Assembly (NCBI RefSeq): GCF_004010195.1
Contig: NC_057718.1
Span: 9,364,826 to 9,420,152 of the forward strand
DNA from: Chiloscyllium plagiosum
Taxonomy: Eukaryota
Length of the DNA: 55,327 nucleotides
Direction: 5' to 3'
This document shows positions 3,413-53,879 of this stretch, piece by piece (position 1 is the stretch's first letter; every line of letters starts with the position of its first letter). A program made the position numbers and the translations under genes. The notes under the pieces are model-generated. The model saw nothing but the letters and a program-made list of their open reading frames with translations, did not search any database and had not been told where the DNA came from.

Positions 3413-3621
3413 CATAACAAAATAAAGAACTGCAGATCTGAAACAGAAACTGCTGGTGAAACTCAGCAGGTCTAGTGATTTCTGTGGGGAGAAAGCAGAG
3501 TTAATGTTTCAGGCCCGATGACAAATGAAGCGCCAATAGACCTGCTGAAACATTAACTCTGCTTTCTCCACAAAGACACTACCAGACCTGCTGAATTTTG
3601 TCTGCAATTTCTGTTTTTATG
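3413..3621. mobile_element. Fold-back Penelope-terminus insertion (family B)
   Basis: Inverted arms (cagcaggtct...gcagagttaatgtttca / tgaaacattaactctgc...agacctgctg). 14-bp TSD tctgactc(c/t)accaa at 3399-3412 and 3622-3635. Confidence 0.75.
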
Positions 3622-3959
3622 TCTGACTCTACCAATCTGAGATTAAAATAATTTGAGATTTGTTATTCTTGTGATTTTTATCCTGACCAGAGTAGAATAA
3701 AACCATTCAGCACAATGTCTCGTCTTTGAGCACCCAAGTTCTGTACTATGAAATGAATAGCTACTTATTTTGTTGGATACATACAGTACACAATGCTATC
3801 TGCCTAAAATGTCTAACCAATAGGAAAACAATTAAAATATTTCAAACTAGGACAGTTTCACAATTTGCCTTTAATAGTGAAGTTGTGAAAACAACTCTAA
3901 AATTTTGATACAGAGACACGTATTCTGCAACAGCTATAGTGAAATCCTAAAACTGTTTA

Positions 3960-4653
3960 TACCGTAAGACCTGGGAGCAGAAATTGGCCATTCAGCCCAT
4001 CGATTGCTCTGCCATTTAATAAAATCATGGTCAATCTCCACTTTCAAAGTTTTATCTCCATAACCCTTGATTCCCTTACTGATTAAAAATGTTTATCTCA
4101 GGCTGGGTAATAACCTAGCCTCGACAGCCTTCTGCCAAGGGGAAAGAATTCCACAGTTGCACAACCCTCAGAGAGAAAATAAAACCTCCTCATTTCTGTT
4201 TTAAATGCACGGTCCCTTACTCTCAGATGATGCCCTCTGGTCCTAGACTCTCCCACATGCAGAAACAACCATTCCACATCTACCCTGTCTAGGGCCCTTA
4301 GAACCTTATATGTTTCAGTGAGATCCTCTCTCATTCATCTAGATTCCAATAGCTGCCACTCCAACCTACTCAATCTCTCCTCCAAAGAAAATCCCTCCAT
4401 TCCTGGTATCAGCCTGGACTACCTCCAATGCCAGTATATCTTTCTGTAGATTAGAGTCCAGAGCAATTCAGTGTTCCAGCTGCACACTAACTAGTGCTGT
4501 GTATAGGTTCAGCAAGACCTCCCTATTTTTATCCCTTTGAAATGCCTTTGAAATGGAGTTGAAATGCCCATCAGCCATGATTGAATGGCGGAGTGGACTC
4601 AATGGGCCGAATGGCCTTACTTCCGCTCCTATGTCTTATGGTCTTATGGTCTT
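3960..4653 (-). mobile_element. CR1 LINE 3' fragment (-) with a short CR1 3' tail inserted on + (about 4555-4653)
   Basis: Minus ORF MREDLTETYKVLRALDRVDVEWLFLHVGESRTRGHHLRV is a CR1 ORF2 C-terminus. The + insert ends in (tcttatgg)n. Confidence 0.8.
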
Positions 4654-5123
4654 AAATAAAGACCAACAGGTGAAGATTGGGCAACTCATTTTTTCCTCAA
4701 CATTCTGAAACCTCTTTTACAATTATGGTGAACAGGGAAAATTAATACCACTTCCTTCCTGCATGCGGAAAAGACCTTGTCTGAATATTTTTCCTAAACT
4801 CAGTTACATGATGGCTTGTGTCCTCATTACATTGACACACAATCTACATTCCTAGAGGGGCCGGGGGTTGAGTTTCAGTTCCAAACAGAAAATGACATTT
4901 ACAATTGTTACAAAACTCATTGCGTTGGTTTCCCGTCTTCACTAAATTTCACCAGCCAGACTTGTAGCCTCAAATGATTCTTTTGGAGAATCCGGAATTA
5001 TTTGACCAGAAGCTTAAGAAGTATTTTCACAATGCTGTGAAATATTCTTCGACTAAACGGATCTGGGTTTTATTGAGGCATTTGTGTCCAACAAATTTCA
5101 GACCAGGCCTATAATGTTAAGAG

Positions 5124-5175
5124 GATGCTGCCTGACCTGCTGTGCTTTTCCAGCACCACTCTAATCTAGACCCTG
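5124..5175 (+). mobile_element. 52-bp Penelope-terminus fragment (family A)
   Basis: gatgctgcctgacctgctgtgcttttccagcaccactct flanked by a perfect 13-bp TSD ataatgttaagag (5111-5123, 5176-5188). Confidence 0.8.
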
Positions 5176-5555
5176 ATAATGTTAAGAGTCACACCATATT
5201 CTGCAAATTAGAACCCTTTGTGAAGTTATCATCTGACAGTGTGAGAGATGCCTCATACACCTCAGACTTCAACTATGTTTACCCTATTGAGGAATATTGC
5301 CCTCTTCTCCAGTGTAGTATCCCCTGAGGAAGGAAACATTCTCCCAGGATTTACCTCCCAGCAAAATCCGCAGCCGAGGCTTTGGGTCTTTCAGCAGCCT
5401 TCCTTCAATTGTGTGAGGACACTAGTTGGTGACACTAGTTGGTGACAACTCTGTGCTGAATATTGCACCGATGGGGCTCAGGGACTCACAGCAGTCTCTG
5501 TCACATTTGCTGCAGAGTGGACTGAGATGGTGCAGGATTCACAGGCCTCCTTTTT

Positions 5556-6080
5556 AGAAACATAGACAATAAGTGCGGGAGGAGGCCATTCGGCCCTTCA
5601 CCTCTGCACCACCATTCAGTATGGTCATGGCTGATCATGCAAACTCAGTATCTCCATTCCCGCTTTCTCTCCATAACCCCTTGATCCCGTTAGCCATGAG
5701 GGCCATGTCCAGTTCCCTCTTGAATATATCTAATGAACTGGCCCCAACAGCTTCCTGTGGGAGAGAATTCCACAGGTTCACAACTCTCTGAATGAAGAAA
5801 TTCTTCCTCATCTCAGTCCTGAATGGCTTAACCTTATACCTAGAGTGTGACCCATAGTTCTAGACCTGCCCACCATCGGGAACATTCTTCCCACATCTAA
5901 CCTGTCCGGTTCCATCAGGATTTTAAATGTTTTCGTGAGATTCTCCTTCATTCATCTAAATTCCAGCGAGTACAAGCCCAGTCGATCCAGCCTTTCCTCA
6001 CATGTCAGTCCTGCCATCCCGGGAATCAGTCGGGTGAACCTTCACTGGACTCTCTCAATAGCAAGCATGTCCTTCCTCAA
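5556..6080 (-). mobile_element. CR1 LINE 3' fragment
   Basis: CR1 3' end (gaggccattcggccc) and ORF2 C-terminal homology on the minus strand; same subfamily as 21105-21975. Confidence 0.8.
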
Positions 6081-6912: not shown

Positions 6913-6984
6913 GAATAAAAAAAAACAAGGAACAGTTTTTAAAATTATTATTCATTTTTAAGGTGGAGGAGGTGATGTTGTCTT

Positions 6985-7502
6985 GGGAATATCTCAGGTC
7001 TAGTAATCTAATAGAGGCCAGGCTATTGTTTTGGGCACATGAGTTCAAATCCCACCATAGTGGAGGGTAGCACCGGCTCTAAAGCTAGTCTAGTGGTAGC
7101 TATTGTCATAAAACAAAGGCATCTGGCTCACTAAGGCCACGAAAGAAGGAAATCTGCTTTCCCCAATGAAAATCGAAAGAACTGCAGGTGCTGTAAATCA
7201 GAGACACAACCAGAAATTGCTGGGAAACCGCAGCATCTCAACTGAGTTCTGAGGAAGGGCACTCCACCCGAAACATTAACTCTGATTTCTCTCCACAGAT
7301 GCTGCTAGACCTGCTCAGTGTTTCCTGCAATTTCTATTTTTAAGTCTGCTGTCCTTACCTGTTTGACCTCCATGTGACTCCAGACCCAAGGTGAACTCTT
7401 ACCTTCCCTCTGTAACAGACCCGAGATGGCCACTCAGTTTAAGGGGCAATTAGGAAGTGTCAATAAATGCTGGCAAAGAAACTCCTGCATCCCATGACAA
7501 AT
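6985..7502 (+). mobile_element. Second SINE family (tRNA-like head, tail shared with a CR1/L2-group LINE), interrupted by a PLE insertion at about 7168-7341
   Basis: B-box gagttcaaatccc and 3' end caataaatgctggc...atcccatga; related copies at 11090-11825, 24605-24930 and 48308-48840. Confidence 0.65.
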
Positions 7503-8500: not shown

Positions 8501-9480
8501 AGGTATCTTATATTGCTGCACAGCCAATGAGATCAAAACAGTTCTCAGGGCGAAAGGGATCACAGCAGAGACAGAGGGCAGGAACATGGGACTGAGTTGG
8601 ACGATCAGCCATGAACATATAGAATGGTGGAGCAGGCTTGAAGGGCTGAATGGCCTTCTTCTGCTCATATTTTTGACGTTTCTATGAATTCTTTCACAAG
8701 TTTAGCTTTGCTCTGAACCTATATCCAAGTTTAACCAATATAGATGGGTTAGCAGACTCACAGAATCAAACATCTTCCTTTGAAATTATCCTGTAGTGGA
8801 AACATTGTTTCTCCCTCCACAGACGCTGCCAGACCTGCTGAATTTCTCCAGCACTCTGATTTTTTTAAATTTAAAATTGAGCCTTTTCCCTCATGATTAA
8901 TCCCATTCAAGGTGTGGTTACCTACAGTGCTCGGGCATTGATTTCCCAGTACAGCATGTTGTAATACAACTCAGCATTGCTACACTCTGGTTAATTCCTC
9001 ATGCCAACCCTCTGTGCATCAAGGAGTCATTAACCAGCACTAGATAATCTGTCACGAAACGAGAGTTTGCTCTGTGACATGCTTGAAAGTCTGGTCAAGT
9101 AAACTGTTATTTCATTCAATCATGGTCTGGTGGTAACGTTTCATTTCAGCTCCACGTTATTTCCCCCTCCCCCAGCTCATCCCCAGAGCCAATTCCGCTG
9201 TTGTGTTTTTGTTTTCTGCTCTGCAGAGTGGAGTTGTATTTACCAAAAGGCAAACCCTGCAATGCATCCTTCGGAACAGATAGCACACAGTCAGCCCCTC
9301 TTCAGGAACACACACACATTGCACGTCGCAAGCATACCAGCCTCAGTACTGCAAGGTGATCGGCAGCTGTGACAGGCTGCCCCTACAATGTGGACTGGAT
9401 TCCATCCAGCGGAATGGATTCGCTCCCAGGAGCACTGCCTAATTGTCAGAGCAACTTGCTGCTGGACAACAACAACAGCC

Positions 9481-9680
9481 AATGCTGAAGATCACAGCGG
9501 GTTGGGCAGCATCCATGGAGAGAGAGCAAGTTAACGTTTCGAGTCTGGATGACCCTTCAGCAGAGCAACGTCTCCATCAGCTCTGGTACAGAGTCACCTA
9601 GACTTGAAACGTTAGATTGGTCTCTTTCCGTGGATACTGCCTGACCCACTGTGATCTCCAGCATTGGGTGTTTTCAGCGC
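9481..9680. mobile_element. Fold-back Penelope-terminus insertion (family B variant)
   Basis: Arms at about 9481-9563 and 9580-9666 are reverse complements; related copies at 15235-15395 and 35458-35640. Confidence 0.75.
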
Positions 9681-10350: not shown

Positions 10351-10354
10351 TCCT

Positions 10355-11825: not shown

Positions 11826-11932
11826 TAGGAGAAAGTGAGGACTGCAGAAGCTGTAGATCAGAGTCAAGAGTGTAGAGCTGGAAAATCACAACAAGTCAGG
11901 CAGCATCCGAGGAGCAGGAAAATTGACGTTTT
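11826..11932 (-). mobile_element. Penelope-terminus fragment (family A)
   Basis: ggagaaagtgaggactgcaga...caggcagcatccgaggagcaggaaaattgacgttt. Confidence 0.75.
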
Positions 11933-12599
11933 GCGTTATTAGCCCAATGAGCTAACCACCACACTACAGTTAGCCAACACTATTAGAGCTAATTGTCTTT
12001 CTTTAATGGAGCCAAATGCCACTGTTCCTTTGTAGTAGACTGTGATCAACAGATTGTGGGCAGTGGGAAAAATAGCAACACCTCAGCATGGTTACTCCAA
12101 CAGCGCCTGTGACTTCTGCTGGTTTAGACACGCTTGGGAGAATTCAGAACAACTAGGTTTACAGAGAAAAGGCACAAAATGACACAGTTGCTTTTTGGAG
12201 AAGGTCAGATGAACTCTTCCATGATTCTCCAAGAGGAGGAGAATACCACAGAGCTCAAAAATAAATTCTGGATTGCATGATGCTGAGGAAACCAGAAACA
12301 TAAAACATAATTGATCTGAAGAGAAAATAAATTGCAAACCATCAGGGAATATCTAAGTAGATCGTTTCAATATCCGATTACAATATTCTTTTACATTCGA
12401 AGCAGTCCTGCTGGAGATCAACCAGTGTATCACAACATTTCACATTATCCACCAGAGAAAGCAACAAAAACGGACAAAGAGTTCCAGCCGCGCAGAGTTC
12501 AGTCCTGTTCACCACATAGATAGAGGCTATGACGCCTCAGGAAGAGATGCTGATTTCCAGACCCAATCCTTCATCCAGTGAATGATCAAAGGGACATAC

Positions 12600-12805: not shown

Positions 12806-13421
12806 CATAGTAAATCAAAAGTGACTGTAGCTATGACAAGGGAAAAGGCTTACAAATACAGCGAGAGTATTGTGTGCAGTTCTGGAATCCACATTGTAGG
12901 AGGGATGGTCAAAGACTATGGATCTGTATTCTAAGGAGCTTAGACGGATGAAGGAAGATCTGATTGAAACTTACAGAAAACTGAGAGGCGTGGATAGAGT
13001 GGATGTGGAGAAGATGTTTCCACCAGTAGGAGAGACTCGGACCCAAGGGCACAGCCTCAGAGTGAAGGGACGACTCTTTAGAATGGAGATGGTGAATCTG
13101 TGGAACTCATTACCACAGAAGGCTGTGGAGGCCAAGTATTTGGGTGTTTTAAAGACAGGGATAGATAGGTTCTTGATTGATAAAAGGATCAAGAGTTGCA
13201 GGGAAAAGGCAGGGGGATGGGGTTGAGAAACAGATCCACCATGATCAAATGGTGGCGCATACTCAATGGGCCAAATGGATTAATTCTGCTCTTTAATCTT
13301 CCAGTCTTATGGGATGTAATTGAACTGTAGGAGGTGCAGAGGACATCTACTAGGACTTTTCCTGGGCTGGAGAGTTTCAGTTATGAAGAGAGGTTGGACA
13401 GAGTGGGCTATGTTCGTTAGA

Positions 13422-13552
13422 GGAGAAAATGAGGTCTGCAGATGCTGGAGATCAGAGATGGAAATGTGTTGCTGGAGAAGCGCAGCAGGTCAGGCAGCAT
13501 CTAGGGAACAGGAGAATCGACGTTTCGGGCATTAGCCCTTCTTCAGCCCTTC
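13422..13552 (-). mobile_element. Penelope-terminus insertion (family A) inside CR1
   Basis: 9-bp TSD ttcgttaga (13413-13421, 13553-13561). Confidence 0.8.
13519..13546 (-). ncRNA. Minimal hammerhead ribozyme core
   Basis: Minus strand reads CUGAAGA-A-GGGC-UAAU-GCCC-GAAA-CGUC. Confidence 0.6.
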
Positions 13553-15234: not shown

Positions 15235-15395
15235 TCTGAAAACATAAACTGCTGGAAATCACAGTGGGTCAGGCAGCATCTGTGGAGAGAGAGTCTAGAC
15301 TCGAAATGTTAGCTTGCTGTCTCTCCATGGATGCTCCCTGATTCATTGCGATCTTCAGCATTTTTTGTTTTTAGTACAGATTCCAGCATCTGCAG
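15235..15395. mobile_element. Fold-back Penelope-terminus insertion
   Basis: Inverted arms; same family as 9481-9680. Confidence 0.7.
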
Positions 15396-21104: not shown

Positions 21105-21975
21105 TTGAAACATAGAAAATAGGTGCAGCAGAAGGCCATTCAGCCCTTCGAGCCTGCACCACCATTCAATATGATCATGGCTGATCAGGCAATCACAATA
21201 GTAGACAGTCATAGAGTCATCGAGATGTACAGCACAGAAACAGACCCTTAGGTCCAACCCATCCATGCCGACCAGATATCCCAACTCAATCTAGTCCCAC
21301 CTGCCAGCACCCGGCCCATATCCCTCCAAACCCTTCCTATTCATATACTCAACTTTTCAAAGTTGCAATTATACTAGTCTCCACCACTTCCTCTGGCAAG
21401 TGCTGGTAAAGCACAGCAGGTAAGGCAGCAACCGAGGAGCAGGAAAATCGACGAGTCGGGCAAAAGCCCTTCATCAGGAATGAGGTTTGTGGGCCGAGGG
21501 GCTTATACCCGAAACGTCAACTCTCCTGCTCCTCGGATGCTGCCTGACCGGCTGTGCTTTTCCAGCACCACACTCTCGACTTTGAACTCCAGCATCTACA
21601 GTCCTCACTATCTCCTAGGCAATCTCAGTATCCCATTCCCTCCCCATACCCCTTGATCCCTTTAGCTATAAGGGCCATTTCCAATCTATCTAATGAACTG
21701 GCCCCAACAGCTTCCTGTGGGAGAAAATTCCACAGGTTCCCAATTCCCTCAGTGACAAAATTCTCCCTCATCTCAGTCCTGAATGGCTTCCCCCTTATTC
21801 TTAGACTATGACCCCTAGTTCTGGACTTACCCAACATCAGGAACATTCTTCCCACATCTAGCCTGTCCTGTCCCATCAGGATTTTATATGTTTCTGTGAG
21901 ATTCTCCCCTCATTCTTCCAAATTCAAGTGAGTACAAGCTCAGTCGATCCAGTCTTTCTTCATAGGTCAGTCCAT
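21105..21975 (-). mobile_element. CR1 3' fragment containing a nested CR1 plus fold-back PLE composite (21201-21616)
   Basis: MGQDRLDVGRMFLMLGKSRTRGHSLRIRG; PLE inverted arms at about 21399-21480 and 21497-21617. Confidence 0.8.
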
Positions 21976-23234: not shown

Positions 23235-23355
23235 AAGATACCGCAGATGCTGGAAATCTGAACCAGCACAGAGAATGCTGGAGAAACTCAACAAGTCTGG
23301 CAGCAGCAGTGGAGAGAGAAGCAGAGTTTTGAGTCCAGTGTGACTCTCCTCCAGA
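23235..23355 (-). mobile_element. Penelope-terminus fragment (family B)
   Basis: gcagatgctggaaatctgaa...gctggagaaactcaacaagtctggcagca. Confidence 0.65.
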
Positions 23356-24604
23356 ACACAAGCCATCACTTCTTCACACAATGGTTCTTGTTTTGTAAGA
23401 AAACTGCTTGTCATAAACAGCCACCAGACACATGGGACTCAACACAGAACAGTACGGCGCAGGGACGGGCCAGTCGGCTCACGATGTTGTGCCAAACATG
23501 ACACCAAATTAAACACATTGTGTTCGCCTACTCCATATCTCTCCAGTCCTTGCATCAAGGAATCTGTTATGAAATGGGATTGGATGTGGTGGGGTTGCAG
23601 ACCTGATTAGATTCCTCTGTACTGGAATCAGTGACCATGACATCTTACCATCCTACCGGAATGGGTGGGAGACTCGGTTCAGAATAGGTGGGGCTGTTGG
23701 TTCAGAGTTCCAGCGGAAAAATGGCACTTTTGACCAAACGGCACTCCCTTGTTACTGAGTCACAGAGCAGCTTGATTTATAAGTTGAAGCATCGGTGTGG
23801 ACCTCAAGCCCATTGACCCCGAAGTAAGTGGGATTACCACAGTGAAACTGACTTGTTTTGGAAAGCAGGATTGAAAGAAACAGGAAGAAAAATCTCTAAG
23901 CATTTGCAGGCAGCATGGTGTTTTAAATAGTACACTCACTGCAGTAAAGTGCAAAGTACAACAGCCAATTTAGACACAGCAAGCTCCCACAACATAATAA
24001 TGAACAGATCATCTGTATTTGCACTATTACTCTATCGATAAATATTGGCCAAGGCATGAGGGAGAGCTGCCTGGCCCTACCTAGGATTAGTACTGTCTGA
24101 TCTTCTCTGAAAGCACTGATAGTCACCTCTAACAGTCTAACACTGAGAATATGGTCAGCGTAGATTCTACCCTCAACTCTCTGTGGAACTTGAAGCCACG
24201 ATCTTCCGGTAAGACACAATAGCAATCCACACTGAGCATTTACTGTTACCAATCAAGCTCTTGGGAAACATTTCCCCTGTTTATCTTTGGAAGTCAGGCA
24301 GTGAAGCCTGGTTCCTTCATCAATCTTTTGGTCACCCAGTCTCATATCACAGTGCTACTGACCTGGGACAGTGCAGTGAGCAGAGAACTCAATGGAACTT
24401 GATGCATGAAAGGACAGTTCAGCATAGTTTCCAATTACTTCAAGTTTATGAACAAGTGTAGGTCATTCGGCCCATTGACCCTGCTATGCCATTCAATTTG
24501 TGATTGATAATCATTAATTAACACCATTTAACCCCCTCTCACAAACACCACCTCCCTTCCTCCTCATTCATATCCAGAAATTTGTTGATTTCTGTTTTGG
24601 AACC

Positions 24605-25037: not shown

Positions 25038-25800
25038 AGTCATAGAGATGTACAGCACGGAATCAGACCCTTCGATCCAACTCATCCATGCAGACCAGAT
25101 ATCCTAAATGAATCTAATCCCATTTGCCAATATGTGGCTCATATCCCTCCAAACCTTTCCTATTCACATACCCATCCAGATGACTTTTGAATGTTATAAA
25201 TGTACCAGCCTCCACCACTTTCTCTGGCAGTTCATTCCATACACCACCACCCTCTACATGAAAACGTTGCCCCTTAGATCCCTTTTAAATCTTTCTCTTC
25301 TGACCTTAAACCTATGCTGTCTGGTTTTGGACTCCCCTACCCTGGGAAAATGACCTTGGCTGTTCACCCTTTCCATGCCCCTCATGATTATGTAAACCTC
25401 TGTAAGGTCATTCCTCAATCACCAACACTCCAGGGAAAATAGCCTCAGCCTATTCAGCTTCTCCCTATAGGTCAAACTCCCTAACCCTGGCAACTTCCTT
25501 ACAAACTTTTCCTGCACCCTTTCAAGTTTAACAACATCTTTCCTATAACAGGGAGACCTAAAATTGAATGCAATATTCCAAAAGTGGTCAAACCAATGTC
25601 CTGTACAGTCGCAAGCTGACCTTCCAACTCCTATTCTCTGAGAGCTTGTGTTTTCAAATAAACCTGTTGGACTGTAACCTGGTGATTTTTGACCCTGATC
25701 AATAAAGGCAAGCGTACCAAATGCCTTCATCACCGCCCTGTCCACCTGCAACTCCCCCGTCAAGGAAATGTGAACCTGCATTCCAAGGTCTCATTGTTTG
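25038..25800 (-). mobile_element. CR1 LINE 3' fragment with a short PLE family C insert (about 25640-25695)
   Basis: SPCYRKDVVKLERVQEKFVRKLPGLGSLTYREKLNRLRLFSLE. Confidence 0.85.
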
Positions 25801-27217: not shown

Positions 27218-27336
27218 TGGAACAAAGTTAAAAATCACACAACACCAGGTTAGAGTCCAACAGGTAGACTACAGCCTGGTGCTGTGTGATTTTTAACTTT
27301 GTCCACCCCAGTCCAACGCTGGCACATCCACATCAT
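27218..27336. mobile_element. Fold-back Penelope-terminus insertion (family C)
   Basis: Inverted arms acaaagttaaaaatcacacaacaccagg / cctggtgctgtgtgatttttaactttgt; gttggaaca is repeated at both flanks. Confidence 0.7.
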
Positions 27337-31783: not shown

Positions 31784-32258
31784 GAGGAGAAAGTGAGGAC
31801 TGCAGATGCTGGGGATCAGAGTCAAGAGGGTATTGCTGAGAAAGCACAGCAGGTCAGGCAGCATCGAGGAGCAGGAGAATCGACATTTCAGACATGAGCC
31901 CTTCATCAGGAATGTATTTCTGATAAGATGTCAATCAAGGCTCTACCCACTCAAAAGTAGGCTACGCATTATTTCGGAGACAAGCAGGTACTTTCTCCAA
32001 AGTAAAAGCAAATTGCTGCCGACACCGGAAATCTGAAACAATCCTGGAGAAACTCAACAGGTCTGGCAGTATCTGTGGAGAGAGAAAAACAAGTGAACGT
32101 TTTGAATCGGATATGACTTCTTCAAAACTGAATTGATTCATTCCTCTTTCAGCATTCTGAAGAAGAGTCGTACTCGACTTAGAATGTTCACTCTGTTTCT
32201 CTCTCCACAGATGCTGCCATAGCTGTTGAGTTTCTGCAGCATTTCCTGCATTTGTTTC
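31784..32258. mobile_element. PLE-terminus family A fragment (31784-31913, -) and family B fold-back (32003-32258)
   Basis: Family signatures and inverted arms. Confidence 0.7.
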
Positions 32259-34654: not shown

Positions 34655-35640
34655 AAATGAAAGCAAAATACTGTGGATGCTGGAAATCTAAAATGGGGTC
34701 TGAAAAGGACCACTGGATTCGAAATGTTAACTTTGCTTTCTCTCCACAAATGCTGTCAGACTTGTTGAGTTTCTCCAGCAATTTCTGTTTCTATTTGAGG
34801 CTGAGATAGATAGATTCTTGACCCATAAGGAAATTAAGGATTACAGGCAAAGGCCAGGAAAATGACGCGAGGAATGTCAGATCTAATGAATGACACAAAA
34901 AAACTGTAGATGTTGGAATCCAAATTAGACAAGCAGGAGGCTCGAAGGATACAGCAAGCCAGGCAGCTTCAGAAGTTGGAGACTTCTCCACCTCCTGATG
35001 CTGCCTGGCTTGCTGTGTTCTTCAAACCTCCTGCTTGTCTACTTACGATCCCAGTGAATGGTGGAGTAGGCTTGAGGGGCTGAATGGCCTACAATTGTTC
35101 CCATTTCTTATGATCCAATGGCTCTTCTTCAAAACTCCACAACTTCAGTTCTGAAGAAGGGTCAGACGAGACTTGAGATGTCAACTCCGCTTTCCCCTTC
35201 CACAGGTGTTGCCAGACCTGCTGAGTTTCTCCAACAACGATATCTTTTTTCGTGTGAGTTTCTCCTGCACCCTCTCCTGTTAAATACCTGATAGCGTCGC
35301 AGATAAATGCTACAAATAATGCATTCTGTCCGACTAATGTGTTCGGAATCAGAATTGCTGGACTTAAAACTTTAACTCTGCCTCTCTCTCCACAGATGCT
35401 GAGATTTTCCAGCAATTTCTGTTGTTTTGTTTCTGATTTCCAGCATCCCCAGTTCCTAATGCTGGAGGTCACAGCAGGTCAGCCAGCATCCATGGAGAGA
35501 GAGCAAGCTAAGGTTTTGAGTCTGGATGATCCTTCATCAGAGCTGAGGTGCCAACGATGCTGCCTGACCCACTGTGATCTCCAGCATTTGTTGTTTTCAG
35601 TACAGATTCCAGCATCTGCAGTAATTTGTTTTATCTGAAC
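34655..35640. mobile_element. Cluster of about five PLE-terminus insertions, mostly fold-back, immediately upstream of CITED2
   Basis: Elements at about 34655-34795, 34892-35045, 35145-35240, 35345-35450 and 35458-35640. Confidence 0.7.
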
Positions 35641-36280: not shown

Positions 36281-36291
36281 TTGGAGGGGCG

Positions 36292-43217: not shown

Positions 43218-43243
43218 ACGCTGCAGGCACCCTGCCTCTATTC

Positions 43244-43271
43244 CTGTTGAAGGGCTTTTGCTCGAAACGTT
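43244..43271 (+). ncRNA. Degenerate hammerhead core at the Penelope 3' terminus
   Basis: CUG(U)UGA-A-GGGC-UUUU-GCUC-GAAA-CGUU, with one substitution in the core. Confidence 0.5.
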
Positions 43272-43381
43272 GATTTTCCTGTTCCTTGGATGCTGCCTGA
43301 ACTACTGTGCTTTTTCAGCACCACTCTGATCTAGACTCTGGTTTCCAGCATCTGCAGTCATTGTTTTTAGAGGGCTAACTG

Positions 43382-43413: not shown

Positions 43414-43414
<1 letters not shown>

Positions 43415-43802: not shown

Positions 43803-44310
43803 CATAGAGTCATACAGCATGGAAACAGACCCTTCATTCTAACTCGTCCATGCTGACCAGATTTCCTAAACTGAGCTATTCCCGTTTGCTTAGGAGAAAG
43901 TGAGGATTGCAGATGCTGGAGATCAGAGTCCAGAGTGAGGCGCTGGAAAAGCACAGCAGGTCAGCCAGCATCTGAGGAGCAGGAGGATCGACGTTTCGGG
44001 CATAAGCCCTTCATCAGGAATGGTGAAGCTGTGTTTTTCCAGCATCACACTATTCCCATTTGCCTGTTTGGTCCATATCCTTCTAAACCCTTCCTATTCA
44101 TGTATCGTCCAAACGTGTTTTAAATGTTGCAATTGTACCCACCTCTACCAACTCTTCTGGCAGCTCATTCCATGCACGTACCATCTTCTGTGTGAAAAAG
44201 CTGCCCTTGTGGACCCTTTTCCATCTTTTCCCTCTCACCTTAAACCTATGCCCTCTGGTTTTGGACTCTCCTTTCCTGGGAAAAAGACCTTGACTATCCA
44301 CCTTCTCTAT
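43803..44310 (-). mobile_element. CR1 3' fragment with PLE family A insertion (43890-44049)
   Basis: KGESKTRGHRFKVRG...WNELPEELVE; TSD ctattccc(g/a)tttgc at 43876-43889 and 44050-44063. Confidence 0.85.
43990..44017 (-). ncRNA. Minimal hammerhead ribozyme core (family A, intact core)
   Basis: Minus strand reads CUGAUGA-A-GGGC-UUAU-GCCC-GAAA-CGUC. Confidence 0.68.
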
Positions 44311-45827: not shown

Positions 45828-45975
45828 AGTTTTGAGAAGATTTGTAGCTCAGGTTGAGGTTCTGGATGTAGGTTTGCTCGCTGAGCTGGAAAGTTCATTT
45901 CCAGACGTTTCGTCACCCTACTAGGTAATGTCCTCAGTGGGCCTCCGGGTGAAGCACTGCTGATAATTCCTGCTT
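45828..45975 (-). mobile_element. PLE-terminus fragment (family D)
   Basis: gaagatttgtagctcaggttgaggttctggatgtaggtttgctcgctgagctgg..., containing a hammerhead-like core. Confidence 0.6.
45901..45940 (-). ncRNA. Type I hammerhead ribozyme motif (family D)
   Basis: Minus strand reads CCA-CUGAGGA-CAUUACC-UAGUAG-GGUGAC-GAAA-CGUC-UGG; stem I CCA/UGG closes the motif. Confidence 0.65.
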
Positions 45976-46039: not shown

Positions 46040-47005
46040 AGTGTCATATAGATATGCAGCACAGAAACACACTCTTCAGTCTAACTGACCCATGCCGACC
46101 AGATATCCTAAATTAATCTAGTCCCATTTGCCAGCATGTAGCCCATATCCCTCCAAACCCTTCCTATTCATATACCCATCCAAATGCCTTTTAAATGTTG
46201 CAATTGTACCAGCCTCCACCATTTCCTCTGGCAGCTCATTCCATACATACCACCCTCTGCGTGGAGAAAGTGAGGTCTGCAGATGCTGGAGATCAAAGTT
46301 GAAACTTTATTGCTGGAACAGCACAGCAGGTCAGGCAGCATCCAGGGAACAGGAGATNNNNNNNNNNNNNNNNNNNNNNNNNNNNNNNNNNNNNNNNNNN
46401 NNNNNNNNNNNNNNNNNNNNNNNNNNNNNNNNNNNNNNNNNNNNNNNNNNNNNNNNNNNNNNNNNNNNNNNNNNNNNNNNNNNNNNNNNNNNNNNNNNNN
46501 NNNNNNNNNNNNNNNNNNNNNNNNNNNNNNNNNNNNNNNNNNNNNNNNNNNNNNNNNNNNNNNNNNNNNNNNNNNNNNNNNNNNNNNNNNNNNNNNNNNN
46601 NNNNNNNNNNNNNNATATCCCTCCAAACCCTTCCTATTCATATACCCATCCAAATGCCTTTTAAATGTTGCAATTGTACCAGCCTCCACCATTTCCTCTG
46701 GCAGCTCATTCCATACATACCACCCTCTGTGTGAAAACGTTGCCCCTTAGGTCTCTTTTAAATCTTTCCCCTCTCATCCTATATCTATCCCCTATAGTTT
46801 TAGACTCCCCCTCCCCAGGAAACAGACCTTGTCTACTTATCCTATCCATGCCACTCAGGATTTTATAAACCTCTATGAGGTCACCCCTCAGCCTCCAACG
46901 CTCCAAGGAAAACAGCCCCAGCCTGTTCAGCCTCTCCCTATAGCTCAAGTCCTCCAATCCTGGCAAACATTCTTGTAAGTCTTTTCCTAAACCTTTCAAG
47001 TTTAA
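46040..47005 (-). mobile_element. CR1 3' fragment with PLE insertion (46263-46357) and gap
   Basis: LPGLEDLSYRERLNRLGLFSLERWRLRGDLIEVYKIL. Confidence 0.85.
46358..46614. other. Assembly gap
   Basis: Run of N. Confidence 1.
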
Positions 47006-47007
47006 CA

Positions 47008-48307: not shown

Positions 48308-48840
48308 GGGCACTGGTGCAATGGTAAAGTCACTGGATTAATAATCCAGAACCACATGGACACATGAGTTCAAATTCTACCGGGGTAGATGGTGAAATTT
48401 GAATTTGATTAAAAGCCAGCTGTTTATGGTCATAAGAACCCACCTAGTTCACTCCTGCCCTTGAGGGAAGGAAATCTGTCATTCTTGACTATTCTCATCT
48501 ACTTTCAGATCCAGAGCAATGTGGTTGACACTCAACTGTCTGAAATTGCCTAGCAAGCCACTAGATAAATAATAGCTGAAAATGTGTTGCTGGAAAAGCG
48601 CAGCAGGTCAGGCAGCATCCAGGGAACAGGAGAATCGATGTTTCGGGCATAAGCCCTTCTTCAGGAATGAGGAAAGTGTGTCCAGCAGGCTAAGATAAAA
48701 GGTAGGGAGGAGGGACTTGGGGGAGGGGCGTCGGAAATGCAATAGGTGGAAAGAGGTCAAGGTGAGGGTGATAGGTCTAGATAAATATATGCTAATAAAA
48801 ACTGGCTAGTGACACGCACATTATATGAATGACTAAAAGA
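48308..48840 (+). mobile_element. Second-family SINE with a Penelope 3'-end insertion (48572-48776, -)
   Basis: 11-bp TSD ctagataaata (48561-48571, 48777-48787); hammerhead-like core at 48637-48664 (-). Confidence 0.7.
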
Positions 48841-49890: not shown

Positions 49891-49892
49891 CA

Positions 49893-50416: not shown

Positions 50417-51110
50417 TGCACCATTTTTCAAGGCCTTCCACCTCCCATCTGTAGTCTGTTTCATCGCTATCTGAGATTCAACCAACTATGATGGCGAACT
50501 TGTAAATGGCATTACTCTAGGATTTGGCAACGCAGTCATGGGTATACAGTGAGTACAGTAGGGGGCTGAGTACAGTTTAATACTCAGTCTCGAGGGGATA
50601 ATAGTATTGAAGGCTGAACTATAGTCAATGAGTAGGATTCATACCTAGCTGTTCTTGGTGTCAAGATGTTCTAGGGAGGAGTGAATGGATGGCAAGTGAT
50701 ATGGCATCTGACGTGGATCTATTGGTCCGATAGGCAAATTGGTATGGGTCAAGAGTTGTGGGGAGACTGGAGTTGATTAATGCCGTGACCAGCCTTTCAA
50801 AGCACCTCATGACCACCGACGTTAGGCCCACTGGGCGGTAGTCATTGAGACATGCTGCATGAGCCTTCTTAGGCACAGGGATGATGTTGGCCCATGATGT
50901 TGGAACAGGCAGGGACAGTGGCCTGCTACAGGGAGAGGTTGAAGATGTCTGAGAAGATCCCTGCCAGTTGATCTGCACATGCTCTGAGTGCACGGCCTGG
51001 TCCTCTTGTCTGGTCCCATCGCTTTCCTTGGATGCACACGAAGGAAAACTGATCTGACCTTGGATGCAGTGACTGTTGGGATCTGTATCTTTGCCAATGG
51101 TGCCTGAAAT
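50417..51110 (-). mobile_element. Rex1/Babar RT fragment, inverted
   Basis: [35 protein letters not shown]...[18 protein letters not shown], and VLSPLLYSLYTHDC at 50417-50572. Confidence 0.8.
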
Positions 51111-51450
51111 TGAGCACAATGATCCAGTTCAGGCCAGTGTTTTGCAAAGGTTCAATGTAATTTTTTTGCCTTTGTACTCAATGCTTCTATTTATAAATCC
51201 AAAGTTTTTGTACACCCTGTTAACCATTGATTAGCCAGTAGTAACTTGCTGAACTTTCATTCTTATGCAATAGTAATAGGGTCGGCCATCTTTCCCCCAT
51301 AACCCTTTTATTTCTTCCTCTTCATTTGATATCATTTAGTCATTTTTTCTAATCTTTCCTTAAACAGTAGCATTCTGTAGCCCTTTCACCTACAGTCTCC
51401 TGATCTTTGAACACTGCCCACTTACATAGATGACCAGTTAAGAGGATTGG

Positions 51451-51650
51451 CATGGAGGTGCCAGCGTTGGACTGGGGTGAACAAAGTCAAAAGTTACATG
51501 ACACCAGGTTATAGTCCAACAGGTTCATTTGAAATCACAAGTTTTCGGAGCACTTGACTTCACCTGACGAAGGAACAGCACTCCGAAAGCTTGTGATTAA
51601 AAATAAACCTGTTGGACTATAACTTGACCTTGTGAGACTCCTGACTTTGG
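51451..51650. mobile_element. Fold-back PLE-terminus insertion (family C)
   Basis: Inverted arms gttatagtccaacaggtt.attt / aaataaacctgttggactataac. Confidence 0.75.
51560..51596 (+). ncRNA. Type I hammerhead ribozyme motif (family C)
   Basis: UCAC-CUGACGA-A-GGA-ACAGCAC-UCC-GAAA-GCUU-GUGA: stem I UCAC/GUGA, stem II GGA/UCC, palindromic AAGCUU stem III. Confidence 0.7.
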
Positions 51651-52009
51651 AGTGTAGTGTTTAATGCCCATTGGGTTGTCTATTGCAGCTTCAGATTGCT
51701 GGCTACGATTGGGCTATGCTATTTGGTGAAATAACATCTTATTTTATGACCCAAGCATTAGTTTAAGAAGTCTTATACTTAAAAGTGTTAGAACATTATT
51801 GCCGTAACCGAACGTTGAAATATTACTCTTGAGCTAACAGCCAGCCAGAGATTGTGAAAGGAATTTCAGTTTAATGCTCAGGTGCAACAGGTCTAACCTT
51901 CTGTGAAAGAAATTGCTTGGTTTACACGTCTCTTTTAATTTTTAAAATGAAATTAAAAATATGCCCCTTAATCTTCACAGAAGAGGACTTAGATCTTGTG
52001 TAGGTTGGG

Positions 52010-52490
52010 GTCAGAATTAGAATGGTGCTGGAAAAGCACAGCAGGCCAGGCAGCATCTGAGGAGCAGGAAAAAAATCAAAGCTTTGGGCAAAAGCCTTTC
52101 ATCAGGAATGGGCCTGTGCTCATTGGAATTTAGAAGAATAAGAGGCAGCCATACTGAAACAGATTCTTCGAGGACTTCTCAGGAGAGATGAGGAGAGATT
52201 GTTTCCCCTAGCTGGAGAGTCCAGGACCAAAGGGCATAATTTCAGAGTAAAGGGTTGACACTTTTAAAACAGAGATGGGGAGGATTTTATTCTCTCAGAG
52301 GGCTGTTGAGGCCCAGTCATTAAGTACATTGAAGGCTGAGATAGAGGAGATTTTTAATCAATACAGAAATCAAGGGTTGGAGAGAAAATGCAGGCGAGTG
52401 GAGTTGAGCATTATCAGGGTGGGCAGAATCTCATTGAATAGTGGAGCAGACCTGATGGGCTGAATGGCCTACATCCGCTCCTTTGTCTTA
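52010..52490. mobile_element. PLE family A fragment (52010-52110, -) followed by a CR1 3' fragment (+)
   Basis: Family signatures; CR1 tail gggctgaatggcctacatccgctcct. Confidence 0.7.
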
Positions 52491-52871
52491 ATGTCCTCTA
52501 ATTCTGGCCTCTGGAGCACATCATGATTTACTTCTTTTTTCCAAAAGGGTACGTTTTATCATAAAATTCATAATAAAAAAATTAACCACAAAACATTTCG
52601 AAACTTGAATATAACAGAACTTGCAATAACACACAACAGCATGTTCCACTCATTGGTCTGACAATAGTCTTAATATTTACAATGCACATGCCATATCAGG
52701 TCTACAGGCTGAGGGGAAAACATTTCAAATTGGAAATCAGATATAAACGTTTCTCTATGCACCACATTCAACTCTGAGGTGCCTTAGTGCATGTTCGATA
52801 TACCCTTGATCTCCACAATGTACATTCTATGCAAGATACATAACCACTCAATTGGTGGCTATGTCTTTGAG

Positions 52872-53068
52872 GAGAAAGTGAGGACTGCAGATGCTGGAGA
52901 TCAGAGCTGAAAATGTTTTGCTGGAAAAGCGCAGCAGGTCAGGCAGCATCCAAGGAGCAGGAGAATCGACGTTTCGGGCCTTCTTCAGGAGGGCTCATGC
53001 CCGAAACATCGATTCTCCTGCTCCTTGGATGCTGCCTGACCTGCTGCGCGTTTCCAGCAACACATTTT
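52872..53068. mobile_element. Young fold-back PLE-terminus insertion (family A)
   Basis: Near-perfect ~70-bp inverted arms; perfect 16-bp TSD tggctatgtctttgag (52856-52871, 53069-53084). Confidence 0.88.
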
Positions 53069-53879
53069 TGGCTATGTCTTTGAGCCCCAGCTCTCTACCC
53101 CTGTTTCCTTCTTTAAGAAGTTCCATAAATCCACCTCTGACTGGTTTTTTTGTGACTCCGTGGTTCAATGTTTACTTTATAACACTCCTGCTAACTGCTA
53201 CAGCAGGTCTGTAACATTGAATGTGCCACATAAATAGGATGAGCTTTGAACTCAGAGAAGAAATGACTAACTCATTCGAACAGATTGCGCAGCACCTTGT
53301 CCAAGTGGGATAGGAAATTCTTAATCTAAATTAAACTCTGGAAGGTGGCGTAATGTAATGGGATTGGTTGAGTTGGGGAGATGGTGGGGGGTGGGAGAGT
53401 GGAACACCTTCTGTTATGGACATAATGCTTAGTCACAACATTCTGCCTCAAGTAGTTCAAAGTTGCAAGGTTTCTTTCAACCCTAATTCAAAATCAAAAT
53501 ATTCCCTGTTTGGTAGAGGCTCAATTTTATTTGCCACTTTCCTTTCTGCAAGAAAAGCAATTTGACCCTCCCCCCCCCCCCCCCCCCACTATTGGAATTT
53601 TGCTACATTTTCTGTGTCACTTTAACATCCAGCAGCGTCAGCAAAGGCCAGTCAGTGTTTTCTGTGGAGTGTCAAATTACATGTTGATGACCTGCTGGGG
53701 GCTTGAAGTTGGCTTACCCTCCCCCCACTTGAGCCTCTTGGCAACACCAGCTCTGTGAAACTTCACAAGCCACTGCTCCTGTACAATGCAGCTGCACATT
53801 CAGTGCAGAGTCCAACACCAATAAATCCCTAGCCTCATGCTCAAAGGCAGACCTGCAGTCCCGGACGCCTTGTAGTTAA

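What the first reader, a model, noticed from the sequence alone, without database searches (positions are those of the whole stretch)
3413..53084. Window-wide population of hammerhead-ribozyme-bearing Penelope mini-elements from at least four families
Seen: about 25 short insertions (50-250 bp) in four distinct sequence families, each family retaining the same RNA architecture CUGANGA-(A)-stem II-GAAA-short palindrome-UH in at least one copy. Examples are family A 43990-44017(-), 13519-13546(-) and 48637-48664(-); family B 7249-7277(+) and about 9534-9562(-); family C 51560-51596(+); family D 45901-45940(-). Stem II sequences differ between families while pairing is kept (GGGC/GCCC, GGA/UCC, GGGUC/GACUC, UUACC/GGUGA). 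Known: Penelope-like elements carry minimal type I hammerheads whose palindromic stem III supports dimeric cleavage. Inference: this shark genome may be seeded with very large numbers of ribozyme-bearing non-autonomous PLE derivatives (retrozyme-like), here about one per 2-3 kb. I am not aware of these being characterised in sharks, but I cannot verify novelty.
Basis: partly seen in the sequence, partly recalled or inferred. Interest (0 to 1): 0.75.

Follow-up and report, generated by a model that had tools for sequence, protein, structure and literature searches.

The report
Penelope retrotransposon stubs carrying minimal hammerheads
The window is peppered with short, mostly decayed stubs of Penelope-like retrotransposons, each starting with a minimal hammerhead ribozyme motif; the kind is well known, but it is unusually abundant in this shark-like genome.

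Summary
BLAST with seven natural seeds finds 35 arms, which make 27 insertions, in four sequence families. A strict minimal-hammerhead descriptor finds 3 intact motifs in the window and 13 in 200 kb of other genome, against 0 in reversed controls.

Family A lies about 270 nt downstream of a GIY-YIG endonuclease ORF end. That ORF is homologous to an RT+GIY-YIG protein.

The copies carry PLE insertion hallmarks:
- Target-site duplications.
- Heavy 5' truncation.
- Inverted twin arms with 3' ends outward: 8 of 8 window pairs.
- A 35-nt tail on only one arm: 8 of 8 family-A twins.

The ribozyme has the published PLE min-HHR traits:
- No helix III.
- A bulged nucleotide after A9.
- G10.1-C11.1.
- A palindromic ACGU or AGCU.

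"Retrozyme-like" is not supported, because no ribozyme-bearing tandem arrays were found. Rfam hammerhead models do not match.

The genome holds about 164,000 intact boxes against 47 in controls. One feature is possibly new: 24 of 40 family-A copies start within 10 nt of the ribozyme's first box, and none clearly starts at the predicted cleavage site. Catalysis is untested.

The parts
3451..3607 (.). Family B inverted twin (arms 3451-3513 minus, 3547-3607 plus). Both arms are truncated inside the ribozyme box and only the GAAACAUU side is left.
5124..5177 (+). Family A 3'-body fragment with no ribozyme box.
7240..7330 (+). Family B solo copy. The box is at 7249-7277, helix I is 5 bp (AACUC/GAGUU) and the palindrome has decayed to ACAU.
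   Evidence: 46.6 bits
8380..8499 (+). Family A solo copy, long (tail-bearing) form, with a decayed box.
   Evidence: E 0.053
8808..8853 (+). Family B 3' fragment.
9481..9665 (.). Family B inverted twin. The minus arm box is at 9525-9571 with stem II GGGUC/GACUC, but its CUGANGA box is incomplete. The plus arm is decayed.
11829..11945 (-). Family A copy truncated at about +8, so the CUGANGA box is lost. Long form.
13414..13546 (-). Family A solo copy with an intact box at 13519-13546. Long form, with a 9-nt flanking direct repeat.
15250..15362 (.). Family B inverted twin. Both arms are truncated within the box.
21402..21614 (.). Family A inverted twin (minus arm then plus arm).
23276..23360 (-). 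Family B solo copy, decayed.
25636..25681 (+). Family C 3' fragment.
27223..27265 (-). Family C 3' fragment.
31787..31914 (-). Family A solo copy, long form. Stem II and the palindrome are decayed (GUCU, AUGU).
32046..32241 (.). Family B inverted twin with stem II GAGUC/GACUU.
34691..34781 (+). Family B solo copy, decayed.
35160..35240 (+). Family B solo copy. The box starts at 35151, stem II is GGGUC/GACUU and helix I is AACU/AGUU.
35367..35401 (+). Family B 3' fragment.
35458..35588 (.). Family B inverted twin. The minus arm box is within 35502-35548 and helix I is AGCU/AGCU.
43234..43359 (+). Family A copy. The sequence upstream reads N (42798-43217), so its true 5' end is unknown.
43892..44022 (-). 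Family A solo 130-nt unit with an intact box at 43990-44017. Long form. Both boundaries are confirmed by loose ends of thousands of reads and contigs.
45840..45945 (-). Family D solo copy. The box is at 45904-45937 and helix I is UGG/CCA. This copy has A10.1 where the commonest listed form has G10.1.
46264..46355 (-). Family A copy, long form. The box region reads N (46358-46614).
48569..48777 (-). Longer family A copy that reaches about 110 nt upstream of the box. It is 89.6% identical over 201 nt to the stretch that follows the endonuclease ORF in L031. The box is at 48637-48664 with the palindrome decayed to ACAU. Short form.
51482..51650 (.). Family C inverted twin. The plus arm has an intact box at 51564-51592: stem II GGA/UCC, AGCU palindrome, H17 = U, helix I 4 bp.
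52011..52115 (-). Family A solo copy, short form, decayed.
52866..53076 (.). Family A inverted twin, with the minus arm in long form and the plus arm in short form. The whole is flanked by a 16-nt direct repeat. It folds as a near-perfect hairpin (-147.5 kcal/mol, z -16.8) and causes sub-threshold Rfam miRNA matches.

Best explanation
The insertions are retrocopies of the 3'-terminal (pseudo-LTR) part of endonuclease-encoding Penelope-like elements, made by target-primed reverse transcription.

Anatomy of a unit:
- It starts with a minimal type-I hammerhead motif. The motif reads helix I strand, CUGANGA, one bulged nucleotide, a helix II hairpin opening with G10.1-C11.1, then GAAA, a 2-nt self-complementary insert (ACGU or AGCU in place of helix III), and H17.
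- In family A it then runs 62 nt further to a 'short' 3' end.
- An alternative 'long' 3' end lies 35 nt beyond that. This extra 35 nt is the PLE 'tail'.

Shown here:
- Physical linkage of family A to a GIY-YIG ORF end.
- Target-site duplications around both solo and twin insertions.
- Inverted twins with their 3' ends outward.
- One tail per twin.
- Conserved core boxes, with helix II and proximal helix I pairing kept through sequence change.

Inferred, on the basis of Frangieh et al. 2024, not tested here:
- Twins arise when both strands of the cut target prime cDNA synthesis.
- The two 3' ends are two internal reverse-transcription start sites.
[quoted passage not shown] On this reading most 130-nt units are complete copies of the element's leader, not random truncations.

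From the literature only: the ribozyme would act only as a dimer or with protein help, in the master element's transcripts. The dispersed solo copies are fossils and cannot form helix III alone.
For: Link to a PLE:
- In L031 the ORF end (...IIYCIRCTRCGLLYIGETGRL...) is followed after about 270 nt by a family A box, and the copy ends at the short 3' end.
- L007 carries the same arrangement, and the window copy at 48569-48777 matches it at 89.6% over 201 nt.
- The ORF fragment passes Pfam GIY-YIG (23.7 bits against a cut-off of 22.6).
- It is 48% identical to a 902-aa protein with RVT_1 followed by a C-terminal GIY-YIG.
- All 150 scored genome matches to a 67-aa piece have E below 1e-26, out of 48,665 first-look candidates.

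Insertion signatures:
- Exact flanking repeats of 8 nt or more occur at 10 of 22 insertions, against 7 of 395 random positions. Five of 9 twins have 13-16 nt repeats around the whole twin. Repeats were also seen by eye in young copies.
- Among 40 family A copies in 255 kb, 16 have 3' ends at +86..+102 and 24 at +116..+136.
- All 8 window twins are in (-,+) order.
- In all 8 family A twins whose two arms I could measure (7 in the sample and 1 in the window), one arm is long and the other short.
- All 10 close pairs among the first 100 exact C2 hits are in (-,+) order.
- Among covariance-model hits there are 10 (-,+) pairs, 2 (+,-) pairs and 0 same-strand pairs.
- These match published PLE features: 5' truncation, an adjacent inverted 5'-truncated copy, and a 30-40-bp tail often at one end only (PMC8557442, passages read). 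They also match extension of both strands and two internal start sites in vitro (PMC11167929, main text read).

Ribozyme features:
- The strict descriptor gives 16 hits against 0 in the control, and 14 of the 16 parse with the bulged nucleotide.
- Helix II is 90.3% paired and helix I 68%.
- The covariation score is 0.293 against 0.219+-0.013 in shuffles (0 of 500 reach it) and at most 0.116 when partners are slid.
- Families of unrelated sequence keep the architecture: A GGGC/GCCC, B GRGUC/GACUY, C GGA/UCC, C2 GGAGC/GCUCC, D GUUACC/GGUGAC.

The 5' boundary:
- 24 of 40 copies start at -10..+8 relative to CUGA.
- Loose ends at 44021/44022 appear in RNA reads and in DNA contigs.
Against: - No Rfam hammerhead family matches, at gathering score or at E<=10.
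- A whole-genome look with RF00163 found nothing, with 73 of 409,411 candidates scored and controls also silent.
- Family A helix I is only 2 bp. The third helix I pair is unpaired in 36 of 52 rows.
- The family A monomer is predicted to pair CUGAUG with CGUCG. This would be an inactive hairpin, and the fold is not better than shuffles (z -1.5).
- No copy clearly starts at the predicted cleavage site (+28). That is 0 of 38 copies whose 5' side is readable, so the bulk of copies were not made from cleaved RNA.
- In one poly(A) single-cell RNA run, 2,261 reads cover the element in both orientations. 99% of them run on into unlike flanks, and no place shows a pile-up of molecule ends (table 6).
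- The reverse-transcriptase part of the ORF reads N in every locus I fetched, so RT was not seen next to the ribozyme. A 5' pseudo-LTR copy was not seen either.
- Linkage of families B, C and D to an ORF was not shown. The 3.7-kb interior of one C2 pair is withheld.
- The 1.15-kb C2 foldback has no ORF.
- The covariation figures come from related sequences aligned to the model, which favours the structure.
Confidence: 0.88

Rival explanations
1. The 130-nt unit is a separate, SINE-like non-autonomous element, the reader's 'mini-element'. It would have its own short ribozyme-led transcript, mobilised in trans by PLE reverse transcriptase. On this reading it is not a by-product of autonomous copies.
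For: - The 5' boundary is sharp: 24 of 40 copies, and the same boundary shows in DNA and RNA reads.
- Very young solo copies are 97.7-99.2% identical to each other (L001, L002 and L008).
- Copy number far exceeds what is usual for full-length elements.
Against: - The same sequence, including the same subfamily markers, continues upstream into the 3' UTR and endonuclease ORF in L031, L007 and seven sampled copies.
- No promoter was looked for.
- A leader-only copy made from autonomous transcripts explains the same boundary without a second lineage.
Confidence: 0.3
2. They are non-LTR retrozymes: tandem ribozyme-bearing repeats that spread through small circular RNAs.
For: - Retrozymes are reported to be PLE-derived, and one chondrichthyan genome was scored positive (bioRxiv 10.64898/2026.07.22.740005; abstract and results read).
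- Two same-strand pairs about 206-219 nt apart were listed in the genome.
Against: - No tandem array overlaps any ribozyme arm in the window (5 arrays, all elsewhere).
- The 206-nt pair is a 225-bp local duplication of nested A and C insertions, and TRF found no array there.
- The copies have target-site duplications, tails and inverted twins, which are TPRT products.
- Helix III and loop-loop features of canonical type-I motifs are absent, and Rfam does not match.
Confidence: 0.05
3. They are foldback DNA transposons (MITEs) or an unrelated SINE, and the hammerhead-like boxes are a chance resemblance.
For: - Many copies are near-perfect inverted repeats of 200 bp with flanking direct repeats.
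- Rfam finds no hammerhead.
Against: - The arms are unequal, because one carries the 35-nt tail.
- Solo arms outnumber twins.
- Flanking repeats vary from 8 to 16 nt.
- The arms are homologous to the 3' end of a GIY-YIG-encoding retroelement.
- Five families of different sequence keep the same boxes, bulge, G-C closing pair and palindrome. Counts are 163,922 against 47 for reversed patterns.
Confidence: 0.03

Closest known systems
Minimal hammerheads (min-HHR) of metazoan Penelope-like elements (Cervera & de la Pena 2014, PMC4209133)
   Same: - No helix III or loop 3.
[quoted passage not shown]
- G10.1-C11.1.
- Palindromic 15.2-16.2.
- A short helix I.
- Consensus families full of compensatory changes.
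- Mostly single dispersed motifs from truncated PLEs, with some pairs on opposite strands.
   Different: - The host is a cartilaginous fish, which is not mentioned in the parts of that paper I read.
- The scale is about 164,000 intact boxes in 3.56 Gb. That paper calls about 4,000 (coelacanth) and about 9,000 (Xenopus) remarkable.
- Family A helix II is 4 bp, not the 7-8 bp described for Schistosoma.
- Family A helix I is only 2 bp.
Poseidon PLE of Anolis carolinensis (PAc; Frangieh et al. 2024, PMC11167929)
   Same: - The hammerhead lies at the junction of the terminal repeat and the start of the unit.
- There are two internal reverse-transcription start sites about 30-40 nt apart, giving an optional tail.
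- Both DNA strands are cut and extended.
- No RNA reads end at the cleavage site.
- The ribozyme is not needed for insertion.
   Different: - In PAc the ORF starts at stem II. Here no long frame opens from the box, and all three frames close within about 26 codons (read by eye from the sequences).
- The distance from the cut site to the 3' ends is 62 and 97 nt here, against about 85-92 nt plus the tail in PAc.
- The link to in vitro behaviour is by analogy only.
Structural arrangements of PLE insertions (Craig et al. 2021, PMC8557442)
   Same: - A high degree of 5' truncation.
- An inverted 5'-truncated copy directly adjacent.
- A 30-40-bp tail often present at one end only.
   Different: - That description concerns full or long copies. 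Here the dominant form is a 130-nt unit or a 200-nt twin made of two such units.
- No partial tandem (pseudo-LTR pair) was seen in the sequence I could read.
Non-LTR retrozymes of animals (Cervera & de la Pena 2020, PMC7229834)
   Same: Type-I hammerhead topology, presumed action as dimers, and co-occurrence with PLEs.
   Different: Retrozymes are tandem 170-400-nt repeats with a canonical helix III and loop contacts, expressed as circular RNA. None of that is seen here.

Membership tests
PLE minimal hammerhead (min-HHR) | Conserved boxes CUGANGA and GAAA in type-I order | tested here: met
   The strict descriptor gives 16 hits against 0 in reversed sequence. Genome-wide counts are 163,922 against 47.
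PLE minimal hammerhead (min-HHR) | Unpaired nucleotide between A9 and 10.1 | tested here: met
   14 of 16 strict hits parse with the bulge. It is A in families A, B and C, and U or C in D.
PLE minimal hammerhead (min-HHR) | G10.1-C11.1 closing pair of helix II | tested here: met
   At pair 25-53 there are 38 GC, 10 GU and 3 other among 51 rows. The commonest listed form of family D has G-C, and the window copy does not.
PLE minimal hammerhead (min-HHR) | No helix III; positions 15.2-16.2 self-complementary so that two copies can pair | tested here: met
   The insert is ACGU in A, B and D and AGCU in C and C2. It is often decayed to ACAU or AUGU in window copies.
PLE minimal hammerhead (min-HHR) | Helix II kept through compensatory change between families | tested here: met
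   Helix II is 90.3% paired, and 3 of its 4 pairs show changes on both sides. Five different stem II sequences all pair.
PLE minimal hammerhead (min-HHR) | Helix I of about 4-5 bp | tested here: inconclusive
   Family B has 4-5 bp, with AACU/AGUU against AGCU/AGCU. C has 4 bp, C2 and D 3 bp, and A only 2 bp. Overall 68% of cells are paired.
PLE minimal hammerhead (min-HHR) | Self-cleavage after H17, as a dimer | not testable with these tools
   Folding alone is not decisive. One RNA run shows no ends at the site.
Endonuclease-encoding Penelope-like element | Single ORF with reverse transcriptase followed by a C-terminal GIY-YIG endonuclease | tested here: inconclusive
   The endonuclease part is seen next to the family A box and passes Pfam. 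Its homologue P0006 has RVT_1 plus GIY-YIG. The RT part reads N in L030, L031 and L033.
Endonuclease-encoding Penelope-like element | Hammerhead inside the terminal repeat that flanks the ORF | tested here: inconclusive
   It was seen downstream of the ORF in L031 and L007. An upstream repeat was not seen.
Endonuclease-encoding Penelope-like element | Heavy 5' truncation with target-site duplication | tested here: met
   10 of 22 insertions against 7 of 395 controls have exact repeats of 8 nt or more.
Endonuclease-encoding Penelope-like element | Adjacent inverted 5'-truncated copy | tested here: met
   There are 8 twins in the window, all in (-,+) order. The whole twin is flanked by 13-16-nt repeats in 5 of 9 cases.
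Endonuclease-encoding Penelope-like element | Optional 30-40-bp tail, often at one end only | tested here: met
   The tail is 35 nt. Of 40 copies, 16 are short and 24 long. All 8 measured twins have one of each.
Non-LTR retrozyme | Tandem arrays of 170-400-nt units, each with a type-I hammerhead | tested here: not met
   TRF on the window finds 5 arrays and none overlaps a ribozyme arm. The lead in L034 is a local duplication.
Rfam Hammerhead_1 / Hammerhead_3 | Score at or above the family's gathering threshold | tested here: not met
   There is no hammerhead hit at gathering score or at E<=10. This is expected for motifs without helix III.

The most novel reading that the evidence does not exclude
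The dominant repeat of this genome's PLEs is a discrete unit of about 130 nt that begins a few nucleotides upstream of the ribozyme. It may be made because the element's reverse transcriptase starts at an internal site close to the 5' end of its own RNA and runs off that end. When both strands of the cut target are used, the result is a twin hairpin with exactly one tail.

That would be a genome-scale, in vivo record of the internal-initiation and two-strand mechanism, which so far has been shown only in vitro for one lizard element. It would also explain how a PLE leader can reach SINE-like copy numbers without a separate non-autonomous lineage. A side effect would be tens of thousands of near-perfect 80-100-bp hairpins that can feed small-RNA pathways if transcribed.
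Probability: 0.35. Interest if true: 0.55.

Novelty: new member of a known kind. Interest (0 to 1): 0.3.

Why it matters
- It shows that a repeat class which standard RNA-family scans miss (Rfam finds nothing) accounts for roughly one insertion per 2 kb in this window. It also supplies at least 1.6 x 10^5 intact ribozyme boxes genome-wide.
- That density is far above the figures I read for coelacanth, Xenopus or axolotl (126,247 canonical motifs in about 28 Gb).
- For annotation, the inverted twins explain spurious miRNA-like hairpin calls.
- For PLE biology, the large and young copy set gives a natural data set on where reverse transcription starts and stops. It carries a sharp 5' boundary, two 3' ends and one tail per twin.
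- The copy set also bears on whether the ribozyme cuts before copying. Here it apparently does not.

Tried and rejected
- **Rfam.** Searches at gathering score and at E<=10 gave no hammerhead. The sub-threshold miRNA hits are twin-insertion hairpins.
- **RF00163 over the whole genome.** Nothing was found, but only 73 of 409,411 candidates were scored and the controls were silent too, so this is uninformative.
- **Pfam GIY-YIG over the genome.** It gave a single hit because only 150 of 14,403 candidates were scored. That hit was nevertheless the way in.
- **A regular-expression look for GIY...YIG.** In 290 kb of six-frame translation it found nothing useful.
- **Earlier notes of this scan.** There are none for this genome.
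- **The look-up of sequencing runs.** No RNA holder was listed. Two raw-read RNA runs of the same species label were offered. One of them (X18) laid no reads.
- **Linking family C2 to an ORF.** The 1.15-kb pair is a non-coding foldback with (GT)n in its centre. The interior of the 4.1-kb pair is withheld.
- **Looking for a 5' terminal repeat upstream of the ORF in L031.** None was found within the 920 readable bases.
- **The 206-nt same-strand pair as a retrozyme lead.** Rejected.
- **MAFFT alignment of all families together.** It misplaced families C and D. The covariance model was therefore built from A+B only and does not detect C or D.
- **Cofolding of two copies.** It did not yield the four-pair helix III as the minimum-energy dimer and is not decisive.
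- **The Lunse, Weinberg & Breaker paper on dimeric PLE hammerheads.** It is not held. I saw it only as a reference and through a review's summary.
- **Supplementary figures and tables.** Those of PMC4209133 and of the 2026 preprint were not read. They may list cartilaginous fishes.

Full report
**What is there**

Using seven natural copies as BLAST seeds, the window holds 35 arms: 14 of family A, 16 of B, 4 of C and 1 of D. Eight pairs of arms are directly adjacent inverted twins, so there are 27 insertions in 55.3 kb. This matches 'about 25' and 'one per 2-3 kb'.

Families A and B are homologous. A 19-nt motif of their 3' body occurs 28 times at up to 4 substitutions. C and D share nothing with them outside the ribozyme core.

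**Is it more than chance?**

The loose pattern alone is not convincing, with 12 hits against 5.8+-2.55 in shuffles. No Rfam hammerhead model matches at gathering score or at E<=10.

I wrote a descriptor with these requirements:
- CUGANGA.
- 0-1 bulged nucleotide.
- A fully paired helix II of 3-8 bp.
- GAAA.
- A self-complementary insert of 2-6 nt.
- U, then H17.

It finds 3 motifs in the window and 13 in 200 kb of other genome. That sample is twenty 10-kb stretches I took at round coordinates on contigs C1-C10. The same sequences read backwards give 0. With one decay step allowed in the palindrome the counts are 24 against 0.

Genome-wide counts:

| Pattern | Matches | Reversed control |
|---|---|---|
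| Family A 31-mer, <=2 mismatches | 120,572 | 0 |
| C2 35-mer, <=3 mismatches | 34,523 | 0 |
| D 34-mer, <=3 mismatches | 434 | 0 |
| Family-agnostic box, ACGU type | 132,571 | 38 |
| Family-agnostic box, AGCU type | 31,351 | 9 |

Only 3 window copies are fully intact. Most have lost the CpG of the palindrome (ACAU, AUGU) or part of a box.

**Ribozyme anatomy**

All families share the same plan:
- A helix I strand.
- CUGANGA.
- One unpaired nucleotide.
- A helix II hairpin opening with G10.1-C11.1.
- GAAA.
- A two-nucleotide insert that makes ACGU (A, B, D) or AGCU (C, C2).
- Then H17.

There is no helix III.

Helix II differs by family:

| Family | Helix II |
|---|---|
| A | GGGC/GCCC |
| B | GRGUC/GACUY |
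| C | GGA/UCC |
| C2 | GGAGC/GCUCC |
| D (commonest listed form) | GUUACC/GGUGAC |

Helix I is 4-5 bp in B, with AACU/AGUU against AGCU/AGCU. It is 4 bp in C, 3 bp in C2 and D, and only 2 bp in A.

A covariance model built from ten A+B boxes finds 53 hits in 255 kb, 22 of them in the window. On their alignment:
- Helix II is 90.3% paired and helix I 68%.
- Six of eight pairs show changes on both sides.
- The covariation score is 0.293, against 0.219+-0.013 in shuffles (0 of 500 reach it) and at most 0.116 with slid partners.

Two caveats apply. The rows are related, and the alignment is fitted to the model.

These are the traits listed for PLE minimal hammerheads in 2014: no helix III, a nucleotide between 9 and 10.1, G10.1-C11.1, palindromic 15.2-16.2 and families full of compensatory changes (PMC4209133, parts 1-2 read).

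**Link to a Penelope-like element**

A Pfam GIY-YIG scan of the genome gave one hit. Its translation shows a Cys-rich motif followed by IIYCIRC...LLYIGETG. A 67-aa piece of it matches the genome at E below 1e-26 in all 150 scored places, out of 48,665 candidates.

In locus L031 this ORF ends. About 270 nt further on comes a family A box, and the copy stops at the short 3' end. L007 has the same arrangement. The window copy at 48569-48777 matches the L031 stretch at 89.6% over 201 nt.

The 160-aa ORF end of L030 passes Pfam GIY-YIG. Its database relatives include a 902-aa protein with RVT_1 followed by a C-terminal GIY-YIG. The reverse-transcriptase part itself reads N in every locus I fetched, so that half of the architecture was not seen beside the ribozyme.

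**Insertion signatures**

*Young copies and flanking repeats.* Young family A copies are about 130 nt long and are flanked by direct repeats of the target. In an automated check, exact flanking repeats of 8 nt or more occur at 10 of 22 insertions, against 7 of 395 random positions. Five of 9 twins carry 13-16-nt repeats around the whole twin, so a twin is a single event. The window twin at 52866-53076 has a 16-nt repeat.

*3' ends.* Among 40 family A copies in 255 kb, the 3' ends fall in two groups: 16 at +86..+102 and 24 at +116..+136 (alignment). The difference is a 35-nt tail.

*Twin structure and order.*
- In all 8 family A twins whose two arms I could measure (7 in the sample and 1 in the window), one arm is long and the other short.
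- All 8 window twins are in minus-then-plus order, so the 3' ends face outward and the truncated 5' ends meet in the middle.
- The same holds for all 10 close pairs among the first 100 exact C2 hits.
- Among covariance-model hits there are 10 pairs in that order, 2 in the opposite order and none on the same strand.

These are the published PLE insertion features: heavy 5' truncation, an adjacent inverted 5'-truncated copy, and a 30-40-bp tail often at one end only (PMC8557442, passages read). They also fit the in vitro finding that a lizard PLE protein cuts and extends both DNA strands and starts reverse transcription at two internal sites that delimit the tail (PMC11167929, main text read).

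**The 5' boundary**

5' ends of the 40 family A copies, relative to the C of CUGA:

| Position of 5' end | Copies |
|---|---|
| -10 to +8 | 24 |
| Reach at least 110 nt upstream, toward the ORF | 7 |
| -35 to -49 | 4 |
| +12 to +32 | 5 (2 of them abut N runs) |

None of the 38 readable copies starts at the predicted cleavage site (+28).

Laying reads on 43850-44080 shows the same two boundaries, at 43891/2 and 44021/2. They appear as loose ends in an RNA run, in contigs of a second run and in DNA contigs.

[quoted passage not shown] I also infer that cleaved RNA is not the usual template. The second inference agrees with the lizard study, where ribozyme mutants did not affect insertion and no RNA reads ended at the cut site.

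**Activity**

Nothing here shows catalysis.
- A monomer cannot form helix III.
- The family A unit is predicted to pair CUGAUG with CGUCG instead, and the fold is not better than shuffles (z -1.5).
- Cofolding two copies is indecisive.
- In the one informative RNA run, 2,261 reads cover the element in both orientations. 99% of them continue into unlike flanks, so they come from copies embedded in other transcripts. No position shows a pile-up of ends.
- The library is poly(A) single-cell and only about 2% of the run was read, so this is a weak negative.
- The literature reports low activity even for dimers (PMC4209133) and protein-assisted cleavage (PMC11167929).

**What it is not**

It is not a retrozyme array. 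No tandem array overlaps a ribozyme arm in the window. The one 206-nt same-strand pair I followed is a 225-bp local duplication of nested A and C insertions.

It is not a MITE either. The arms are unequal, solo arms dominate, and the arms are the 3' end of a retroelement.

**Novelty**

Searches of the held library:
- 'hammerhead' + 'Penelope-like' + 'shark' returns one review, which uses 'shark' only for the motif's shape.
- 'Penelope' + 'shark' + 'retrotransposon' + 'genome' returns 15 papers. Going by their titles and abstract starts, none is about ribozymes in sharks.
- 'hammerhead ribozyme' + 'Chondrichthyes' returns five papers. The only relevant one is a 2026 preprint that scored tandem retrozymes in a single chondrichthyan.

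So the kind is known, and its description in a shark and at this scale appears not to be in print in that library. I did not read the supplements of the 2014 paper or of the preprint, and they may list such species.

For comparison, the papers I read give these figures:
- About 4,000 min-HHRs in coelacanth and about 9,000 in Xenopus (PMC4209133).
- 126,247 canonical type-I motifs in axolotl (PMC7229834, passages), whose genome is given as 28.21 Gbp in the 2026 preprint.

**Verdict**

This is a real, correctly recognised feature. It is a new member of a known kind, with a useful quantitative twist: the sharp ribozyme-first boundary, one tail per twin, and no copies from cleaved RNA. Interest is modest.

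Noticed in passing
window 36142-37029 (+): An open frame of 296 aa matches Pfam CITED at E 6.6e-63. This is a host gene, and the repeats lie all around it.
   Followed up: no
window 1-1533 (+); 50088-50471 (+); 50664-51128 (-): Fragments of other retroelements. One is a 511-aa frame with a weak zf-RVT match, and two are RVT_1 fragments just below the Pfam cut-off. They are not part of the PLE copies.
   Followed up: no
window 52926-53050 and 34938-35029: Sub-threshold Rfam miRNA matches (mir-2756 at 50.3 bits against a cut-off of 61; MIR2118_2 at 37.6 bits). The first is the family A twin hairpin (-147.5 kcal/mol, z -16.8). The second is another foldback, with its own terminal inverted repeats and no ribozyme box, and I did not classify it.
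   Followed up: partly
window 42798-43217 and 46358-46614: Runs of N lie directly upstream of two family A copies, where a longer PLE copy would continue. The same pattern occurs in L030, L031 and L033.
   Followed up: no
L032 (1-1351): A C2-type pair 1.15 kb apart is one large foldback. Its arms are at least 450 nt long and non-coding, and a (GT)n-rich stretch sits at the centre, between the two 5' ends.
   Followed up: partly
L034 (1-1001): A family A twin and a family C foldback are nested in each other. A 225-bp local duplication (92% identity) mimics a tandem pair of ribozymes.
   Followed up: yes
window 43892-44021 (-): In the predicted fold of the unit, the 3' body (GAUGCUGG) pairs with the tail (CCAGCAUC). 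The short 3' end then lies in the loop just before the 3' strand of that stem. This recalls the stem-loop start site described for the lizard element.
   Followed up: no
runs X1-X12: Runs labelled with three other coded organisms hold a small share (0.04-0.09) of the sampled words of the stretch around the family A copy. The repeat may therefore be shared beyond this species.
   Followed up: no
window 33333-33563: A (TG)n microsatellite of about 115 units, with a 54-nt higher-order period beside it.
   Followed up: no
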